The notes beneath the pieces were generated by a model. That model was not told where the DNA came from and did not search any database. It was given only the letters and a program-made list of their open reading frames with translations. Below, piece after piece: positions 13,870 through 20,314 of a stretch of DNA of 31,152 nucleotides (positions are counted from its first letter, which is position 1; each line of letters starts with the position of its first letter). Source of the DNA: a virus; UHGV virus genome UHGV-1981267. One strand, 5' to 3'. The position numbers and the translations under genes are program-made.

Positions 13870-14070
13870 GTCGTGCTACCACCAGAGTTCTCACGCTCTT
13901 GAATGGTGGTAGCCCAAGCGGGGGTGAGAATACCGGCAAACGAAGAAACCGGCCTGACCGAAGTCAGCCCCGCCTGAGCCACCATAAATCGGATATGCGC
14001 AGGTATATACACACAAAAAAACACGCTGGCGCGTGTTGTGCGCTTCGTTTATCCGGGTTCTCACGCCCGG
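13870..14070 (-). ncRNA. Structured leader / candidate small regulatory RNA of the immA operon (P4 CI / N15 CA RNA-like)
   Basis: On the transcribed strand: GUGAGAAC (from 14057..14064), then UUCUCACCCC (13921..13930), then GUGAGAAC (13887..13894) inside a 10-bp stem (13875..13913). The middle element is complementary to both others. Confidence 0.4.
14012..14035 (-). terminator. Intrinsic terminator inside the immA leader
   Basis: On the minus strand: CACGC-GCCA-GCGUG hairpin followed by UUUUUUUGUGU. Confidence 0.5.
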
Positions 14071-14145
14071 CTGCGGAATTTGCCGCAGCGGAGTAACTTT
14101 ACCGTCAAAACGACGCACACGTCAATAATTTGCAAAGACATTTTA

Positions 14146-15270: not shown

Positions 15271-15462
15271 TTACTCCCCGTTCACCGAAAAATCACGATA
15301 GAAACGTTTCCACATACGATAAGTCTGCGCGAGTTGTTCACCACGAAACATCGCCTTCCTGGCCTTCATGTTTTCCTTGTGAGACTTTCGATCTATGAAC
15401 CAAAACCATTGCTGGAACACACAAAGCAAGAGACACAAAGATAATATCCACTGATTACCCAT
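15271..15462 (-). CDS. Possible small membrane protein
   Basis: Internal Met of track ORF 15271..15579. Hydrophobic segment WILSLCLLLCVFQQWFWFI. Overlaps repA stop by a few nt. Confidence 0.3.
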   Translation of the reverse strand: MGNQWILSLCLLLCVFQQWFWFIDRKSHKENMKARKAMFRGEQLAQTYRMWKRFYRDFSVNGE

Positions 15463-18400
15463 AGAAAGCGCCCTGCTCTTCGTAGCTGCATGGGCTATTC
15501 CCGGTAATGTATTCACGTAACCGCCGCAGTTCATTGCTGGATAAGTGATCCATGAACTCTGTGAGGTACAGAGATGCAAACGTCATAGCTATGCTGGCTG
15601 ATGACCATGATGACATAGTGGCCAGCTCCTCACCGGAAAGCGCACTCATCGCCCAGGACTCAGGTACAACCACTGGCAACACAGCCAAAGCCTCAGAAAT
15701 TACTGAATGAGGGGCGTTTTGAACCTGCTCGTTTGTGGATCGCGTTTTATCATCCATATATATATTGAGATCCAAATCGCGATCCATTTCGATGGCGGTC
15801 TTCTCGGCTTTACGCGTTTTCAGGGTTAGGCCATCTTTCTGACGCTGAGCAAGAATATCCAGCATAAATGCCGCTGATTCAGGCTCAACAAAACGCAAGG
15901 TTGGACGCTTATCGCCGTCTCTGCCGCGACGTTTACCTGTTTTAAGGCCAAGAGAGTCGCAAATGTTTTTAAACAACGCTTCCGGCACTTTAGGCTTCCC
16001 TTTTGGCGTCATAAAACCACCAATGTGCAGAACGTTATTCAACAGGTCACGGCGTTCGGCTGTCATGAGGTTATCTCGAGCGAATTTGAGACGCTCCTGA
16101 GTCGCCTCGCCGGTCATAGTCTCAGGGTTGATACCGCAGTCGATAAAGTACTGCCGGAGAGTTGCTGATTTAAGCGCATAGAAACCGCGCGCCCCGACTT
16201 CAACAGTAGGAGTAGCTTTTACCTTGTAGTCGATTATTCCAAGGAATTTAGTTTTAAAGACATCATCAGCCTGCTCGCGAGTCATCGCGGTCACTACAAA
16301 ATATTGCCACTGTCCCGCCTGACGGTATGCGTAGGTAAAATTGATGGCTGCTTCTTCCCGGTCGTAACGACGAGCTGTTACCTCATCTAAAAGCATTGTT
16401 TCATAGCGGCGAATTTTGTCTCGAGCACCATCGAAATAGAATTTCAGCGTGCCTTCTTCAACCGGTAGTTTCAGTTCGTTCTCAATATCCCAGCGGACAA
16501 GTTTTGCTTGTTCTTCAAGCGTCAGCGCGCGTTTTTTTAGCAGTTCTTCACGCTCTGATTCTTGTGGAGTTTCTGTATTGAGATGCAGATCCAGTGTCTG
16601 TTCCCACACAATATCCCGCGCTTCTTTACGCAGATCTTTACCGATATCATTCGCAGCATAATCGGTGGCCAGCGGCGATACCTTATAACCGTCGCTGTGC
16701 ATGATGCAGATCATGTTGCTGGCGTAGTCGTTACGCGCAGACGCTTCAATTGCGGCTGCTTTAATTTTCATCCTGGTAAAGTCGGTATTGGCCACCCCCA
16801 TTGATATACGGTCGCCATCGAAAACGACATCCGTCAGTTCACCGTTCATGCCTGCGGTAGCAAGCAATGCCTGGGCGAATGCTCGTTCTATTTTTTGCGG
16901 GTCAGTTTCACGTTTTGCGCGAGCTTTATCAAAGCCGATAATAAATTCTTTTGCTGTACGGTCGCGGCGTAGCATTTGCACTGCGTCGCTGGGTACAACT
17001 TCACCACAGAACATGCCGAAATGACGGTCAAAATGTTTTTGCTCAATTGACACACCGGATGAAATAGACGGGCTATAAATCAGGCCGTCGTATTTTTTGA
17101 CCATCTTTTTCGGTTGATTGGTAAATGCTTCAACTTCTGGCTCTGGTTTGTTTTTCTGGTTTACACACAGAAATTTCTTACCAGGAAAATGCATTCTCAG
17201 GGTGGCGGTCACATCTTCTGCAAAGGTGGAGCTGTCGGTGGCCAACATGATTTTTTCGCCATTCGATACAGCTTTCACCACCTCGGTCATAATGCGATCT
17301 TTTTCTGTATAAAAAACCCGGATTGGCTCACCTGTTTCGCGGTTGCGAAGATCAACAGGTAATTCAATTACGTGGATCTGCAGCCATGCCGGTAAACCTA
17401 GTTCTTCACGGCGTTTCATAGCCAGTTCAGCTAGGTCAACCAGCAGATCGTTCGCATCAGCATCCACCATTATTGGGTGTTGTTCCGTTCTGGCCAGCGC
17501 GTCAATTAACGTATTGAATACAGCCACCGGGTTTTCCATAGCCCGACCGGAAAGAACGGCACGTAGCCCTTGCGTGGCCTCGTCAAAGCCAAAATAGTCG
17601 TGCTGGCGCATCAATGGTTGCCAGCAGTTTTTAACAATCGAGTTTATGCAGATGGTCAGTTTACTGGCGTATGGAGCCATTTCCTGATAGCCAGGGTCCT
17701 GATAGTGCAGGATATCGGCTTTTACACCTTTTCCTTCTGTCATCATTTCCCACAGGCCACCAATAAGGGAAACACGGTGAGCAACAGAGATACCACGTTC
17801 TGAGCTATGCATTAAAGGTCGTAACAATCCAGTAGATTTGCCGGAACCCATACCAGCACGAACGATGACTATCCCCTGTAGTGATTGCACATACTTCAGG
17901 ACGTCATCGGTCATTACCGAAGTTTCAAAACGCTTATAGGTGATATGTTGAGGACGTTTATTGGGATCAGTTATTCGTTCGCTGAATGAGCGCGGAGCCT
18001 GGGCAATACGGCACTTTTTATTCAGGCGACGGGCAATGTGGTCTTTTACCGTAGCGCGATAGATATTTTCCAGCCCAATTTCACGCAGGACGATGCAGAA
18101 CATGTTAAATAAGTCTGACGGACTGTTAGGAACCGGACAGGTTAGCATGCCAATATCCACTGCTCTCAGCAGCTCTTTGGCAAAAGTACGACGGTTATCC
18201 CGCTTAATTGTCTTCAGGCGGTTGAGCGTCAGAGATAGCAAATCAGTGCCAGTTTTCAGGCGGTTTGCAGTTGCAAACAGTTGACGTGCTGTTTCACGAA
18301 GTCCACGTAGTTTGTGCAGGTCGTTGAAGTCACTGCACTCCATTTGCGGATCGTCTTCAAAAGTTGGATAGACGCAGCGGACATCGTTGAATTTCGATAA

Positions 18401-19450
18401 GATTTCATAGCCAGTCCGCAGGCCGGTATTCCCTTTTCCTTCTGTAGCTGATTTCCGGTCATTATCCAGTGCGCAGGTGATTTTTGCCGCCGGGTACATG
18501 TTTACCAGTTGTTCCACAACATGAACCATGTTGTTAGCGGATACAGCGACAACCACAGCGTCAAAGCGTTTATCTTTTTTCGTGGCAAGCCAGATGGATG
18601 CACCAGTAGCAAAACCTTCTGTAACAGCGATGTTTTGCGCCCCTTTCAGCTCACCGATAACAAAGCAGGCACCGACGAAATCGCCGCTGGTTACGGCGCT
18701 GGTCTGGTATTTTCCACCTTGTTTGTCGATTCGCTGCCAACCAACAATACGACCATCGTAACGACCGTCCAGGTGAGCCAGAGGGATAGACATATACGTG
18801 GTTGGCCCCCTGCTCCATTTTGCGCTGTCGTGACTGGTCACGCGACGCACATCACACGAATTAAAAACGTCACGAATACCTTTTTTAATCGCATATGGCC
18901 ATGAGCCGTCTTCTGCAGGAGCATGTTCCCAAGCACTGTGGAATGCCAGCCATCCCAGCAAACGTTCATGGTCCATTTGGTTGTTTTTCAGGTCATTAAT
19001 TCGTTTTTGTTCTTCACGGCGACGACGTGCTTCGGCCTGACGTTCTATTCTTGCCCGTTCTTCTTCCGGTTGTGCGACCACGGTCGCATTATTCCGTTGT
19101 TGCTCACGGCGATATTCAGAAAACAGGAAGGAGAAACCGCTCCATGAGCCAGCATCGCTGCCTTTATGGACGAAGTTAATGAACGGGTAATCAATCCCTT
19201 TGCTGTGTTCCAGCCGGGAGTAAATTTCTACGCGTCCTTTGAGGCTCTTCTCGAGAGCTTCTGGAGATGTTTTATTGTATGAAGAGTAACGCTCAACACC
19301 CCCGCGAGGGTTGAGTTGGATGTTGTCGGAACAGGCAGACCAGTTGATACCAGCCATCTGTGCCAGCTCGGTTAGTTCATCCCGTGCTGCTTCAATTAGC
19401 GAGAACGGATCGCTGCCAAAGCGATCCGCATAGAAATCGTTTAATGTCAT
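15455..19450 (-). CDS. repA: Replication protein RepA (primase plus helicase, N15 RepA-like)
   Basis: 1331-aa ORF. Walker A GMGSGKS in the central helicase region. Size and position next to cB as in N15. Confidence 0.9.
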   Translation of the reverse strand: MTLNDFYADRFGSDPFSLIEAARDELTELAQMAGINWSACSDNIQLNPRGGVERYSSYNKTSPEALEKSLKGRVEIYSRLEHSKGIDYPFINFVHKGSDAGSWSGFSFLFSEYRREQQRNNATVVAQPEEERARIERQAEARRRREEQKRINDLKNNQMDHERLLGWLAFHSAWEHAPAEDGSWPYAIKKGIRDVFNSCDVRRVTSHDSAKWSRGPTTYMSIPLAHLDGRYDGRIVGWQRIDKQGGKYQTSAVTSGDFVGACFVIGELKGAQNIAVTEGFATGASIWLATKKDKRFDAVVVAVSANNMVHVVEQLVNMYPAAKITCALDNDRKSATEGKGNTGLRTGYEILSKFNDVRCVYPTFEDDPQMECSDFNDLHKLRGLRETARQLFATANRLKTGTDLLSLTLNRLKTIKRDNRRTFAKELLRAVDIGMLTCPVPNSPSDLFNMFCIVLREIGLENIYRATVKDHIARRLNKKCRIAQAPRSFSERITDPNKRPQHITYKRFETSVMTDDVLKYVQSLQGIVIVRAGMGSGKSTGLLRPLMHSSERGISVAHRVSLIGGLWEMMTEGKGVKADILHYQDPGYQEMAPYASKLTICINSIVKNCWQPLMRQHDYFGFDEATQGLRAVLSGRAMENPVAVFNTLIDALARTEQHPIMVDADANDLLVDLAELAMKRREELGLPAWLQIHVIELPVDLRNRETGEPIRVFYTEKDRIMTEVVKAVSNGEKIMLATDSSTFAEDVTATLRMHFPGKKFLCVNQKNKPEPEVEAFTNQPKKMVKKYDGLIYSPSISSGVSIEQKHFDRHFGMFCGEVVPSDAVQMLRRDRTAKEFIIGFDKARAKRETDPQKIERAFAQALLATAGMNGELTDVVFDGDRISMGVANTDFTRMKIKAAAIEASARNDYASNMICIMHSDGYKVSPLATDYAANDIGKDLRKEARDIVWEQTLDLHLNTETPQESEREELLKKRALTLEEQAKLVRWDIENELKLPVEEGTLKFYFDGARDKIRRYETMLLDEVTARRYDREEAAINFTYAYRQAGQWQYFVVTAMTREQADDVFKTKFLGIIDYKVKATPTVEVGARGFYALKSATLRQYFIDCGINPETMTGEATQERLKFARDNLMTAERRDLLNNVLHIGGFMTPKGKPKVPEALFKNICDSLGLKTGKRRGRDGDKRPTLRFVEPESAAFMLDILAQRQKDGLTLKTRKAEKTAIEMDRDLDLNIYMDDKTRSTNEQVQNAPHSVISEALAVLPVVVPESWAMSALSGEELATMSSWSSASIAMTFASLYLTEFMDHLSSNELRRLREYITGNSPCSYEEQGAFYG
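15736..15786. other. Candidate replication origin element inside the repA 3' region
   Basis: Inverted repeat TGGATCGCG ... CGCGATCCA flanking the AT tract CATATATATATT. Three GATC sites within about 50 bp. Confidence 0.35.
19073..19088. other. sopC-like centromere palindrome (inside repA coding sequence)
   Basis: TGCGACCACGGTCGCA: 7-bp inverted arms with 2-bp spacer. One base per arm different from the F sopC core TGGGACC-AC-GGTCCCA as recalled. Confidence 0.7.
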
Positions 19451-19504
19451 TTTTTAGCCATTCCATGCGAATTATGTTTTTTCGGGTTGAAAAAATCCGC
19501 AGGA

Positions 19505-19601
19505 GCAGCCACAATAAACGCATCTTGAATTGACGGAATCCGTCGCGTTGTTGTGGCTGCTTCCTGAAAAGGACCCGAGTTTGCCGACTCGGGTTTTTTT
19601 T
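19505..19601 (+). other. Stem-loop plus strong plus-strand intrinsic terminator in the cB-repA intergenic region
   Basis: 10-bp inverted arms GCAGCCACAA / TTGTGGCTGC (19505..19514, 19551..19560) enclosing the palindrome GACGGAATCCGTC. Then stem CCCGAGT / ACTCGGG with an 8-T run (19574..19601). Confidence 0.45.
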
Positions 19602-19695
19602 CGTCTTTTTTCTGCTGCTGTAACCTGAGTCAACCCACAGAACATATGCCCTGCATTAAACCAGATTTACAGTAAACAATAAACCCCATATTAAG

Positions 19696-20292
19696 TCATC
19701 TACCCTCAACCATGAATGATTTGATCGTTCCGACTATTTGGTGAACAAATTCAAGATCGCTTTTCCTGAAGATGGCGCGTTGTGAGTTTGTTCCATCCAG
19801 ATAGTAATTTTCATCATCAAAACGGGCCAGGCGCTGGATAGTGATATTTCCTGCAGTATCACGAACCAGAACATCCTCGCCGGGGACCAGTTCCAGCGCA
19901 GAATCGACCAGGAGAAAATCGCCTGGCTGATAGTTTCCCTGCGTAAGATTGCTGATAGTTAACGCATACACAGTATTGCGCTGGCTGATGAATGGCAGGA
20001 ATCGCTCAGTATTTGGAACCTGTCCCGGCTTCCACTCTTCATCCGGCCCACTTTCAGTTGTGCCAATAACAGGAATGCGATCAGGGTCATATTCTGTCCC
20101 ATATAGCACCCAATGCACTGGCTTGCGTAAGCACTTAGCCAGGGCAATACCTATCTCCAGTGACGGCATTACGTCGCCACGTTCTAAGTTTTGGACGCCT
20201 GCTATAGAGATATCGACAGCCTCAGCAACTTCTCGCAACGTCAGCTTCATCTCTAAACGGCGTGCTTTCAGTCGTTCGCCTCGTGTTTTCAT
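19696..20292 (-). CDS. cB: Prophage repressor CB (HTH plus LexA/S24-like C-terminal domain)
   Basis: 198 aa. N-terminal HTH (LTLREVAEAVDISIAGVQNLERG). C-terminal domain typical of CI/LexA-type repressors. Divergent from cro. Confidence 0.88.
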   Translation of the reverse strand: MKTRGERLKARRLEMKLTLREVAEAVDISIAGVQNLERGDVMPSLEIGIALAKCLRKPVHWVLYGTEYDPDRIPVIGTTESGPDEEWKPGQVPNTERFLPFISQRNTVYALTISNLTQGNYQPGDFLLVDSALELVPGEDVLVRDTAGNITIQRLARFDDENYYLDGTNSQRAIFRKSDLEFVHQIVGTIKSFMVEGR

Positions 20293-20314
20293 AGCTTAAT
20301 CATAAATGATCTTC

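What the first reader, a model, noticed from the sequence alone, without database searches (positions are those of the whole stretch)
19451..19695. Structured cB-repA intergenic region with a strong plus-strand terminator antisense to the repA leader
A 10-bp inverted repeat (19505..19514 and 19551..19560) enclosing a small palindrome is followed by a hairpin with an 8-T run at 19574..19601. The terminator is strongest on the plus strand, opposite to repA. A weak candidate promoter (TTGAAA at 19487, CACAAT at 19510) could drive a short antisense RNA of about 80 nt. Alternatively the same structures attenuate the repA leader on the minus strand. Either would be a copy-number control element.
Basis: inference. 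Interest (0 to 1): 0.45.

Follow-up and report, generated by a model that had tools for sequence, protein, structure and literature searches.

The report
Antisense RNA control region before repA
The region between the repressor gene and the replication gene of this N15-like linear plasmid prophage very probably encodes a short antisense RNA, with its promoter and terminator, that helps set plasmid copy number; the same element was already predicted in phage N15 in 1996, so this is a re-discovery.

Summary
Window 19451-19695 is the cB-repA intergenic region of an N15-like linear plasmid prophage. It holds a long inverted repeat (19500-19566), a GC-rich hairpin with a T8 run (19574-19601) that is stronger on the + strand, and a TTGAAA-17-CACAAT promoter match (19487-19515).

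The interpretation matches GenBank U45242.1 (N15 immB). That record annotates the same sites as 'Pinc; promoter of putative antisense RNA', a terminator for that RNA, a terminator for the repA leader, and the CB operators OL1/OL2.

New comparative support:
- The promoter block is the longest invariant run (42 nt) in 3.7 kb across 35 distinct relatives, and the terminator stem-loop is also invariant.
- The ~45 nt between them drift at about the synonymous rate but always keep a long hairpin.
- The PY54-like and VP882-like families cannot be aligned to the window here, yet show the same layout: a -10 inside a hairpin arm, then a terminator pointing against repA. That terminator is often one-directional.

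Best reading: an ~80-nt countertranscript, made of an unstructured 5' tail plus a terminator hairpin, pairs with the repA leader and lowers RepA synthesis alongside CB repression. No transcript data were available, and the step after pairing is unresolved. Known kind, modest interest.

The parts
19455..19467 (-). repA ribosome-binding region (CAUGGAAUGGCUA). The repA start codon is at 19450-19448.
   Evidence: Mapped from the N15 RBS annotation. RNAfold predicts that it is mostly paired with repA codons 5-9, with or without the antisense target blocked.
19473..19499 (-). Small A/U-rich leader hairpin III (GCGGAUUUUUUCAACCCGAAAAAAC...). It overlaps the -35 of the antisense promoter.
   Evidence: It lies within the 42-nt invariant run. 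The equivalent small hairpin of the PY54 family carries G.U pairs only in leader sense, 8 cells against 0.
19487..19515 (+). Candidate sigma-70 promoter Pinc: -35 TTGAAA (19487-19492), 17-nt spacer, -10 CACAAT (19510-19515). The predicted start is near 19522.
   Evidence: Scan. The hexamers are identical to those annotated 'Pinc; promoter of putative antisense RNA' in N15 record U45242.1. Diversity is pi = 0.003 against 0.39 at repA third codon positions. It is present in all 43 loci that were collected through RepA alone.
19500..19566 (-). Leader hairpin II. The 5' arm is 19566-19548 and is variable among relatives. The apical loop is about 19547-19518 and contains the small GACGG/CCGUC stem. 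The 3' arm is 19517-19500, is invariant, and is the complement of the Pinc -10.
   Evidence: It folds to -35.0 kcal/mol with z = -6.9. The hairpin is kept in all 27 sequence variants, at -27 to -40 kcal/mol against -18 +/- 3 when the variable part is shuffled. The PY54-family counterpart shows compensatory changes and leader-sense G.U pairs.
19522..19601 (+). Predicted ~80-nt antisense RNA (countertranscript). It has a ~50-nt 5' tail (19522-19573) followed by the terminator hairpin and U8.
   Evidence: The tail has no significant structure of its own: -11.0 kcal/mol, z = -0.41. The whole RNA gives z = -4.0 because of the terminator. The tail is complementary to the loop and 5' arm of hairpin II. 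Tail sequences fall into two classes, and the window's class is at most 66% identical to the N15/phiKO2 class. The transcript itself has not been observed.
19566..19601 (+). Intrinsic terminator: A-rich run, stem CCCGAGTT/GACTCGGG (19574-19593), T8 (19594-19601). It is weakly bidirectional.
   Evidence: It is annotated as a terminator in both orientations in N15 and as 'putative bidirectional' in phiKO2. The stem-loop is invariant in 35 relatives.
19644..19683 (-). repA promoter PL (-35 at 19683-19678, -10 at 19660-19655) overlapped by CB operators OL1 (19644-19659) and OL2 (19667-19682). The leader starts near 19648.
   Evidence: Mapped from the N15 annotation. Both sites keep the TA-N10-TA operator pattern. 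CB binding to OL1/OL2 and its effect on copy number are reported for N15 and phiKO2 (PMC4997575).

Best explanation
The cB-repA intergenic region is the replication-control region of an N15-type linear plasmid prophage. It is orthologous to the N15 repA leader.

repA is transcribed leftward from PL, near 19648. The CB repressor shuts PL at operators OL1 and OL2. The ~198-nt leader folds into three elements: a hairpin complementary to the terminator, a long hairpin II (19500-19566) with a large apical loop, and a small A/U hairpin just before the ribosome-binding site.

On the opposite strand, a constitutive promoter (TTGAAA-17-CACAAT) has its -10 inside one arm of hairpin II. It fires into the loop and makes an ~80-nt RNA that stops at the strong plus-strand terminator. 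This RNA is an unstructured ~50-nt 5' tail followed by a terminator hairpin.

Its 5' end is complementary to the exposed loop of leader hairpin II. Pairing would start there (tail-to-loop), spread through the 5' arm and the terminator-complement hairpin, and give a long duplex that lowers RepA synthesis. The amount of this RNA follows gene dosage, so it provides negative feedback on copy number on top of CB repression. In N15 and phiKO2, and only weakly in this window, the same hairpin also terminates part of the PL transcripts.

Shown here: the sequence elements, their conservation, and the same layout in two distant families. Inferred: that the promoter fires, that the RNA pairs with the leader, and that pairing is inhibitory. 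The step after pairing is not resolved. Candidates are cleavage and decay of the duplex, refolding of the leader near the ribosome-binding site, or interference between the convergent promoters.
For: 1. Orthology. The region is 82% identical to N15 and 99% identical to the YDC107_1 and PhiR46_1 phages. N15 record U45242.1 annotates Pinc, both terminators, and OL1/OL2/PL at the homologous sites.

2. Selection. In 35 distinct 3.7-kb relatives, 19478-19519 is the longest invariant run (42 nt). Diversity is pi = 0.003 over Pinc and 0.034 over the terminator, against 0.39 and 0.30 at repA and cB third codon positions. The 44 nt in between have pi = 0.335, about neutral. They still keep hairpin II in all 27 variants.

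3. Independent families with the same layout. PY54-like loci have a RepA N-terminus 46% identical to the window's and an intergenic region that BLAST does not align. They carry a -35 block, an 18-nt spacer that varies in sequence but not in length, a TACAAT or TAAAAT -10 inside the arm of a long inverted repeat with 29 nt between its arms, and then a terminator with a T-run only on the strand opposite repA. Compensatory changes support this structure: 4 pairs changed on both sides (1 of 500 shuffles reaches this) and a covariation score of 0.131 against 0.066 (0 of 500). Among VP882-like loci, 9 of 11 have a GC-rich terminator in the antisense orientation, with no leader-sense terminator in L100-L105. 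Each has a TTGnnn-16/17-TA(C/A)ACT promoter match about 100-130 nt upstream of that terminator.

4. A terminator that points against both flanking genes has no role unless a transcript starts between repA and it.

5. The predicted RNA has the tail-plus-terminator-hairpin form of the proven replication-control RNA II of pMV158, which also works together with a repressor protein. Tail-to-loop pairing is documented for hok/sok and for plasmid p42d (PMC4485353).

6. CB control of repA and of copy number is experimental for N15 and phiKO2 (PMC4997575).
Against: - No transcript data were available. The promoter is only a 9 of 12 consensus match, with C instead of T at the first -10 position. Matches of that quality occur at chance frequency in this region.
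- The invariance covers the whole 42 nt, not only the two hexamers, so something beyond a promoter constrains it.
- The predicted RNA stops about 70 nt short of the repA ribosome-binding site, so it cannot block the site directly.
- Two tests of indirect mechanisms failed. Blocking the target region does not change the predicted accessibility of the Shine-Dalgarno region: 0.11 against 0.10 in N15-likes, and no consistent change in PY54-likes. A leader ORF that begins at the antisense 5' end has no conserved stop position relative to repA.
- In the PY54 family the G.U pairs show that hairpins II and III are selected in the repA mRNA. This fits a target role, but it also fits a purely cis-acting leader.
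- No Rfam family covers the region.
- No paper in the searchable library reports the RNA. A 2025 review of phage small RNAs has no N15 entry.
Confidence: 0.62

Rival explanations
1. The region acts only in cis as a leader. The hairpins and U-runs are structures of the repA mRNA that attenuate transcription, by partial termination at the bidirectional terminator, or that set mRNA stability and translation. The plus-strand promoter match is fortuitous and no functional antisense RNA is made.
For: - N15 and phiKO2 have a leader-sense terminator match.
- In the PY54 family, hairpins II and III carry 13 and 8 G.U cells in leader sense, against 1 and 0 in the other sense.
- The promoter match alone is at chance level.
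- The invariance extends well beyond the two hexamers.
Against: - The leader-sense U-tract is degraded in the window (GGGUCCUUUUC).
- It is absent in PY54-like loci (CUUCGUAC) and in the distant VP882-like loci.
- The antisense-orientation T-run is kept in all N15-like and PY54-like loci and in 9 of 11 VP882-like loci. In L091 and L092 it is even lengthened by a change that gives G.U only on that strand.
- The -35 and -10 blocks sit at fixed spacing with a variable spacer in the PY54 family.
Confidence: 0.2
2. The plus-strand terminator is an insulator. It stops stray plus-strand transcription that runs out of the antisense side of repA, so that this transcription does not collide with PL and the cB gene. 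Any short RNA made is a by-product.
For: The terminator lies 47 nt before the PL start and faces both flanking genes. The arrangement with convergent promoters makes protection of PL plausible.
Against: - No other plus-strand promoter match lies between 19000 and 19486.
- An insulator role does not explain why a promoter-like block is the most conserved sequence of the locus.
- It also does not explain why the -10 is built into a conserved hairpin in three families.
Confidence: 0.1
3. The element works at the DNA level. The inverted repeats (19473-19499, 19500-19566) are binding sites for a regulator such as RepA, CB or a host protein, or they form a cruciform. They are not RNA structures.
For: The 42-nt invariance is typical of protein-binding DNA. 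The small palindromes overlap the -35 in both the N15-like and the PY54-like families.
Against: - One arm of the long repeat is free to vary, with indels and bulges, which would disrupt a symmetric protein site.
- The PY54-family repeats tolerate G.U pairs but not A.C pairs, which is an RNA signature.
- phiKO2 CB bound only the right-hand part of the region, which holds OL1 and OL2 (PMC4997575).
Confidence: 0.05

Closest known systems
Phage N15 repA leader region: Pinc putative antisense RNA, bidirectional terminator, OL1/OL2 operators and PL (GenBank U45242.1; Lobocka et al. 1996, recalled from memory)
   Same: - Same position between cB and repA.
- Identical -35 and -10 hexamers and spacing.
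- Identical terminator stem-loop and T8.
- Same operator pattern and the same PL hexamers.
   Different: - The ~45 nt between promoter and terminator, which form the body of the RNA, are at most 66% identical to N15.
- The operator sequences differ.
- The leader-sense U-tract is weaker in the window.
- In N15 the features are themselves labelled 'putative'. I could not read the original papers.
pMV158 antisense RNA II with the CopG repressor (PMC4485353)
   Same: - Dual control of the initiator gene by a transcriptional repressor and a countertranscript.
[quoted passage not shown]
- Binding does not depend on loop-loop kissing.
   Different: - RNA II is 48 nt with a 17-nt tail, and it ends immediately upstream of the repB translation signals.
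- Here the RNA is about 80 nt with a ~50-nt tail, and it ends about 70 nt from the repA start.
- The replicon type is unrelated: rolling-circle, against a primase-helicase initiator here.
R1 (IncFII) CopA/CopT with CopB, and the ColIb-P9/IncB Inc RNA (from general knowledge)
   Same: - An antisense RNA targets a structured leader well upstream of the rep start codon.
- A repressor protein acts on the rep promoter in parallel.
- Inhibition must therefore be indirect.
   Different: - Those systems work through an obligatory leader peptide (tap or repY) or an activator pseudoknot.
- Here the candidate leader ORF has no conserved stop relative to repA.
- No conserved loop-to-RBS pairing was found.
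- CopA has two stem-loops and uses loop-loop kissing.
hok/sok of R1 and the repABC plasmid p42d antisense RNA (as summarised in PMC4485353)
   Same: The single-stranded 5' tail of the antisense RNA is positioned to pair with a hairpin loop of the target (loop-linear recognition).
   Different: The targets and outcomes differ: toxin mRNA, or transcription and translation of repC. The recognition mode here is inferred only from folding.

Membership tests
N15-type repA leader control region (as annotated in GenBank U45242.1) | Lies between the 3' end of the prophage repressor gene cB and the 5' end of the primase-helicase gene repA, with both genes on the same strand | tested here: met
   repA is at 15455-19450(-) and cB at 19696-20292(-). 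The homologous genes are annotated in N15, phiKO2 and a 100%-identical plasmid.
N15-type repA leader control region (as annotated in GenBank U45242.1) | Pinc promoter hexamers TTGAAA-17-CACAAT on the strand opposite repA | tested here: met
   Identical hexamers and spacing at 19487-19515. They are invariant in all relatives.
N15-type repA leader control region (as annotated in GenBank U45242.1) | Terminator hairpin CCCGAGTTTGCCGACTCGGG with T8, annotated in both orientations | tested here: met
   An exact match lies at 19574-19601. The plus orientation is strong. The leader orientation is weaker than in N15.
N15-type repA leader control region (as annotated in GenBank U45242.1) | Two CB operators (TA-N10-TA) overlapping the repA promoter PL | tested here: met
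   OL1 at 19644-19659 and OL2 at 19667-19682 keep the pattern and the PL hexamers. Their binding by this phage's CB was not tested.
N15-type repA leader control region (as annotated in GenBank U45242.1) | An antisense transcript is made and affects repA expression or copy number | not testable with these tools
   No expression data were available. The feature is labelled 'putative' in the N15 record itself.
Countertranscript (antisense RNA) control of plasmid initiator genes | A promoter inside the rep leader, reading opposite to rep, followed by an intrinsic terminator, giving a small untranslated RNA fully complementary to the leader | tested here: met
   A candidate promoter and a strong terminator lie 80 nt apart. 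The same layout is found in the PY54-like and VP882-like families. Promoter activity is inferred, not shown.
Countertranscript (antisense RNA) control of plasmid initiator genes | Acts in trans, is unstable, and determines incompatibility | not testable with these tools
   Only indirect evidence exists. N15 and phiKO2, whose tails fall in one broad class, are reported to be incompatible (PMC4488713). Partition and CB cross-reaction could equally explain that.
Leader-peptide-coupled antisense control (R1 tap, IncB/IncI repY) | A leader ORF whose start is covered by the antisense RNA and whose stop is placed so that its translation activates the rep start | tested here: not met
   An ORF (M/V-RLLWLLLRIFSTRK...) starts at 19525-19523(-), facing the antisense 5' end, in 79 of 80 loci. 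Its stop lies at -24, -4, +1, +35 or +56 nt from the repA AUG, depending on the clade, and at +56 in the window. PY54-like loci give -11, +1 and +32/33. The +1 cases are what frame chance would give, because repA begins AUGA.
Antisense-induced transcription attenuation (pT181, pIP501 type) | Binding of the antisense RNA lets a terminator hairpin with a U-run form just upstream of the rep ribosome-binding site | tested here: inconclusive
   In N15-likes, hairpin II is 4 nt from a U6 run. In PY54-likes a small hairpin lies 4-5 nt from a U6-U8 run. Neither is a canonical terminator. Antisense pairing would open hairpin II rather than form it. No alternative fold that forms a terminator appeared in constrained folding.
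Rfam RNA families | Match at or above a family's gathering score | tested here: not met
   The best hit is NsiR1 at 26.4 bits against a gathering score of 39, and it covers the terminator only. Nothing in 19451-19695 reaches gathering threshold.

The most novel reading that the evidence does not exclude
The countertranscript module may be the ancestral copy-number controller of telomere (linear plasmid) phages as a whole. Its features are a -10 built into the arm of a leader hairpin, so that the RNA starts in the loop, a long unstructured 5' tail, and a terminator pointing against repA. It is conserved from N15-like through PY54-like to VP882/Hapunavirus-like elements without detectable sequence similarity. 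Its freely drifting tail would define specificity classes. Two appear here, the window/YDC107_1 type and the N15/phiKO2/Klebsiella type, and they would decide which related phage-plasmids can share a cell. It acts through an indirect mechanism not yet described, because neither ribosome-binding-site occlusion, leader-peptide coupling nor a standard attenuator fits.
Probability: 0.3. Interest if true: 0.55.

Novelty: already known. Interest (0 to 1): 0.28.

Why it matters
N15-like linear phage-plasmids are common in clinical Klebsiella and E. coli: 214 plasmid records in PLSDB carry this region. The N15 replicon is also the basis of linear cloning vectors such as pJAZZ (PMC2847241).

Copy number and compatibility of these elements are usually explained by the CB repressor alone. 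If the antisense RNA is real, it is a second, dosage-sensing control layer and a candidate determinant of which related prophages can coexist. It would also be a handle for tuning vector copy number.

What this analysis adds is comparative evidence, not a new idea. The element is under strong selection, and the same design recurs in distant telomere phages. That makes a 30-year-old prediction worth a direct test.

Tried and rejected
1. RBS switch. I tested whether antisense pairing frees the invariant 3' arm of hairpin II to sequester the repA Shine-Dalgarno region. I folded 39 N15-like and 9 PY54-like leaders with and without the target region blocked. Mean SD accessibility was 0.11 against 0.10 in N15-likes, and there was no consistent shift in PY54-likes. 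By eye I saw anti-SD complementarity in PY54 (UUUCCGC/GCGGAAA, apparently covarying in L091), but the model gives it no switching role. Not supported.

2. Leader-peptide coupling as in R1 tap. The start codon is conserved (AUG or GUG in 79 of 80 loci), but the stop position is not. Rejected as a conserved mechanism.

3. Strand assignment of hairpin II in N15-likes from wobble pairs and energies. The leader sense is more stable in 13 of 27 variants, and G.U pairs number 33 against 36. Inconclusive. The test worked only in the PY54 family.

4. RNAalifold on the 27 N15-like variants. It failed to recover hairpin II because MAFFT misaligns the indel-rich arm. I relied on single-sequence folds with shuffles instead.

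5. 'Hypervariable, therefore diversifying selection'. The segment's diversity (0.335) is no higher than at synonymous sites (0.30-0.39). It is neutral-like, so this idea is rejected.

6. Hairpin II plus U6 as an intrinsic terminator. The U-run is 4 nt from the stem in N15-likes and 22 nt away in PY54. Considered unlikely.

7. Rfam. There are no significant hits.

8. Literature. Eight full-text searches were run. Five look-ups by id failed because the papers are not held, and these included the primary N15 papers (Lobocka 1996; Mardanov and Ravin 2006). No held paper tests the RNA. VpdS of VP882 is an unrelated trans-acting small RNA.

9. Limoniibacter relative (L048, RepA 68% identical). Its upstream region cannot be aligned and has no terminator, so the module is not universal among RepA homologues.
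Full report
**What the window is**

The 245-nt region 19451-19695 lies between a 1331-aa ORF (15455-19450, minus strand) and a 198-aa ORF (19696-20292, minus strand). The region is 99% identical to Escherichia phages YDC107_1 and PhiR46_1, and about 82% identical to N15, phiKO2 and many Klebsiella phage-plasmids.

**Checking the observation**

Every feature is present.
- The inverted repeat is longer than stated. Its arms are 19504-19517 and 19548-19561 (14 nt, one G.T, 30 nt apart). With the CAGGA/TCCTG extension it spans 19500-19566.
- It encloses the palindrome GACGG-AAT-CCGTC at 19532-19544.
- The terminator is CCCGAGTT-TGCC-GACTCGGG (19574-19593) followed by T8 (19594-19601).
- As RNA, the plus strand folds to -19.7 kcal/mol with a U8 tail. 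The minus strand folds to -15.3 kcal/mol with the tail UCCUUUUC.
- The consensus scan reports the terminator only on the plus strand here, but on both strands in N15 and phiKO2.
- The promoter match TTGAAA-17-CACAAT is at 19487-19515.

Within this single sequence the numbers of promoter-like and terminator-like sites do not exceed the shuffled expectation. The case for function has to come from comparison with relatives.

**It is already annotated in N15**

GenBank U45242.1, the N15 immB region, carries the following features at the homologous positions. I mapped them onto the window.

| N15 annotation | Window coordinates |
|---|---|
| 'Pinc; promoter of putative antisense RNA', -35 | 19487-19492 |
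| 'Pinc; promoter of putative antisense RNA', -10 | 19510-19515 |
| 'putative terminator of RNA antisense to repA transcript' | 19574-19601 |
| 'putative terminator of repA leader transcript' | 19563-19593 |
| CB operator OL1 | 19644-19659 |
| CB operator OL2 | 19667-19682 |
| repA promoter PL, -10 | 19660-19655 |
| repA promoter PL, -35 | 19683-19678 |
| repA ribosome-binding site | 19455-19467 |

The phiKO2 record calls the hairpin a 'putative bidirectional' terminator. From memory, not verified here, the abstract of Lobocka et al. 1996 concludes that N15 replication is controlled by CB, by an antisense RNA, and by a balance of termination and antitermination. Experimental work that I could read shows only the protein layer. 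CB binds OL1 and OL2, and loss of CB raises copy number in N15 and phiKO2 (PMC4997575; PMC4488713).

**Comparative evidence within the N15-like family**

I collected 43 loci from viral contigs and 2 from genomes through the RepA N-terminus alone. A further 32 came from metagenomes through a flanking-sequence pattern. All except the Limoniibacter locus L048 carry the element, and there are 27 distinct sequences between promoter and terminator.

An alignment of 35 distinct 3.7-kb loci gives these diversity values.

| Segment | Diversity (pi) |
|---|---|
| repA third codon positions | 0.387 |
| cB third codon positions | 0.303 |
| 19487-19521 (Pinc) | 0.003 |
| 19566-19612 (terminator and T-runs) | 0.034 |
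| 19522-19565 (between promoter and terminator) | 0.335 |

- The longest invariant run of the whole alignment is 19478-19519 (42 nt).
- The terminator stem-loop 19574-19593, including its loop, is the third longest invariant run.
- The segment between promoter and terminator evolves at roughly the neutral rate, with indels. It is not faster than neutral, so there is no sign of diversifying selection.
- Pairing is nevertheless retained. In every one of the 27 variants the variable arm still forms a long, bulged hairpin with the invariant arm. The energies are -27 to -40 kcal/mol, against -18 +/- 3 when the variable part is shuffled, and 0 or 1 of 200 shuffles reach the observed value.

**The same design in two unalignable families**

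PY54-like family. The RepA N-terminus of PY54 is 46% identical to the window's, and its cI-repA spacer gives no BLAST match. In the same order and at similar distances it has:
- a small palindrome carrying TTGCGC;
- an 18-nt spacer;
- TACAAT inside the left arm of a 15-nt inverted repeat with 29 nt between its arms;
- a GC-rich hairpin followed by TTTTTATT;
- a repA promoter farther on.

In repA-mRNA sense that hairpin is followed by CUUCGUAC, so it terminates only the strand opposite repA.

Nine PY54-like loci show the -35 and -10 blocks conserved at fixed spacing while the spacer varies. One member has TAAAAT instead of TACAAT, with the matching change TTGTAG to TTTTAG in the other arm. The terminator shows a T..A to A..T swap, and one change that gives G.U only on the antisense strand. 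On the leader-sense alignment:
- 96% of cells are paired;
- 4 pairs carry changes on both sides (1 of 500 shuffles reaches this);
- the covariation score is 0.131 against 0.066 (0 of 500);
- slid controls pair only 34-45% of cells.

VP882-like (Hapunavirus-like) family. The RepA N-termini are 38-99% identical to VP882. Nine of 11 loci have a strong terminator in the antisense orientation 170-230 nt from the repA start, and L100-L105 have none in leader sense. Each of the eight loci examined has a promoter match about 100-130 nt upstream of that terminator: TTGCTA-17-TACACT, TTGCTA-17-TAAACT, TTGAAG-17-TACACT or TTGACG-16-TAAACT. By my reading of the sequences and folds, the -10 lies at the foot of a long hairpin.

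A terminator that faces both neighbouring genes, preserved in three lineages, is hard to explain unless a transcript starts between repA and it. This is the strongest argument for the antisense RNA.

**Anatomy of the RNA pair**

With a start about 7 nt after the -10, the RNA would run from about 19522 to 19601, which is 80 nt.
- Its first ~50 nt have no significant structure (-11.0 kcal/mol, z = -0.41). The remainder is the terminator hairpin.
- The repA leader (about 19648 to 19451) is strongly structured, with z = -4.6 for 211 nt. Hairpin II alone gives -35 kcal/mol and z = -6.9.
- Because the -10 sits in the arm of hairpin II, the 5' end of the antisense RNA is complementary to the apical loop of that hairpin. 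The rest of the tail is complementary to the 5' arm.
- This geometry is shared by all three families. It corresponds to the loop-linear recognition described for hok/sok and p42d. The tail-plus-terminator form corresponds to RNA II of pMV158, which works alongside the CopG repressor (PMC4485353).
- In the PY54 family the G.U pairs of hairpins II and III fall almost entirely in leader sense: 13 against 1, and 8 against 0. These hairpins are therefore selected in the repA mRNA, as expected of a structured target.
- In N15-likes this test is uninformative: 33 against 36 G.U pairs, and 13 of 27 variants more stable in leader sense.

**How it most likely works**

My best-supported model is a constitutive countertranscript whose level tracks gene dosage. 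It pairs with the repA leader and reduces RepA synthesis. It acts together with CB repression at PL and, in N15 and phiKO2 more than here, with partial termination of PL transcripts at the bidirectional terminator. I put this at about 0.6.

The step after pairing is open. The RNA ends about 70 nt from the repA start, so inhibition must be indirect.
- I tested a switch in which the freed 3' arm captures the Shine-Dalgarno region. Constrained folding shows no change.
- I tested leader-peptide coupling. An ORF (AUG here, GUG elsewhere; MRLLWLLLRIF...) begins opposite the antisense 5' end, but its stop ranges from -24 to +56 nt relative to the repA AUG among clades, and is +56 in the window. The cases that overlap the AUG are what frame chance predicts.
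- Neither hairpin II nor the small hairpin is a canonical attenuator.
- What remains is cleavage and decay of the long duplex, a refolding that thermodynamic models miss, or interference between the convergent promoters. These need experiments.

**Rivals**

- A purely cis-acting leader (0.2) is weakened by the one-directional antisense terminators and the degraded leader-sense U-tract in the window.
- An insulator role for the terminator (0.1) does not explain the conserved promoter block.
- A DNA-level protein site (0.05) does not fit the indel-tolerant arm or the G.U pattern.

One fact is unexplained by any model. The whole 42 nt are invariant, not only the hexamers. Overlapping constraints from both strands are the likeliest reason, but this was not shown.

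**Specificity**

The first 40 nt of the tail fall into two classes. The window/YDC107_1 type has 29 loci. The N15/phiKO2/Klebsiella type has 51 loci and is at most 66% identical to the first. N15 and phiKO2 are reported to be incompatible with each other, which is consistent with one class but equally explained by shared partition or CB cross-binding. Whether the tail sets compatibility is a testable prediction, not a result.

**Verdict**

The element is the orthologue of one already predicted and annotated in N15, and it belongs to the well-known class of countertranscript replication controls. It has no Rfam family, and I found no accessible experimental demonstration of the RNA. The comparative evidence here strengthens an old hypothesis and extends it to PY54-like and VP882-like phages. 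Interest is modest at 0.28.

Noticed in passing
window 13902-14102 (-): There are three Rfam matches above gathering score: C4 antisense RNA (RF01695, 13902-13989), isrK (RF01394, 14016-14089) and the c4 a1/b1 targets (RF03163, 14050-14102). From general knowledge this is the secondary-immunity (antirepressor) RNA region known from N15 and P1. It lies on the far side of repA from the finding.
   Followed up: no
window 20252-20293: The first ~40 nt of the cB coding sequence are invariant in 35 distinct relatives (runs 20270-20293 and 20252-20268), although cB third codon positions have pi = 0.30. This suggests an extra constraint on the 5' end of cB, such as an RNA or operator function.
   Followed up: no
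window 19392-19525 (-): A small ORF, MRLLWLLLRIFSTRKN..., starts exactly opposite the predicted 5' end of the antisense RNA. Its start codon (AUG or GUG) is kept in 79 of 80 loci. In N15 it ends in a UGA overlapping the repA AUG, but in the window it runs 56 nt into repA in another frame. The stop position is not conserved.
   Followed up: yes
window 19422-19470 (-): RNAfold pairs the repA Shine-Dalgarno region (UUCGCAUGGAAU) with repA codons 5-9. The predicted SD accessibility is therefore low (0.01-0.4) in nearly all N15-like leaders, whatever the state of the antisense target. Covariation was not tested.
   Followed up: partly
window 19613-19625 (leader sense ACAGCAGCAG; GCAGCAGCCG in N15): A conserved GCAGC-rich segment upstream of the terminator in the leader is a second possible partner for the invariant 3' arm GGCUGCU of hairpin II. 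Constrained folding pairs the two when the antisense target is blocked. Its significance is unknown.
   Followed up: partly
loci L009/L010, L019/L022, L025/L027, L028/L032, L086/L087: Several IMG/VR contigs hold two inverted copies of the repA locus on one contig. This looks like head-to-head assembly of hairpin-ended linear plasmids rather than two co-resident elements.
   Followed up: no
L048 (NZ_BMZO01000013.1, Limoniibacter endophyticus): A RepA N-terminus 68% identical to the window's occurs on a 52-kb contig of an alphaproteobacterium (Bartonellaceae). Its upstream region cannot be aligned and has no terminator-like site.
   Followed up: partly
window 19478-19519: The whole 42 nt around Pinc, including the spacer, are invariant among relatives whose RepA proteins are only 82-87% identical. 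A promoter alone would not require this, and no model tested here fully explains it.
   Followed up: partly
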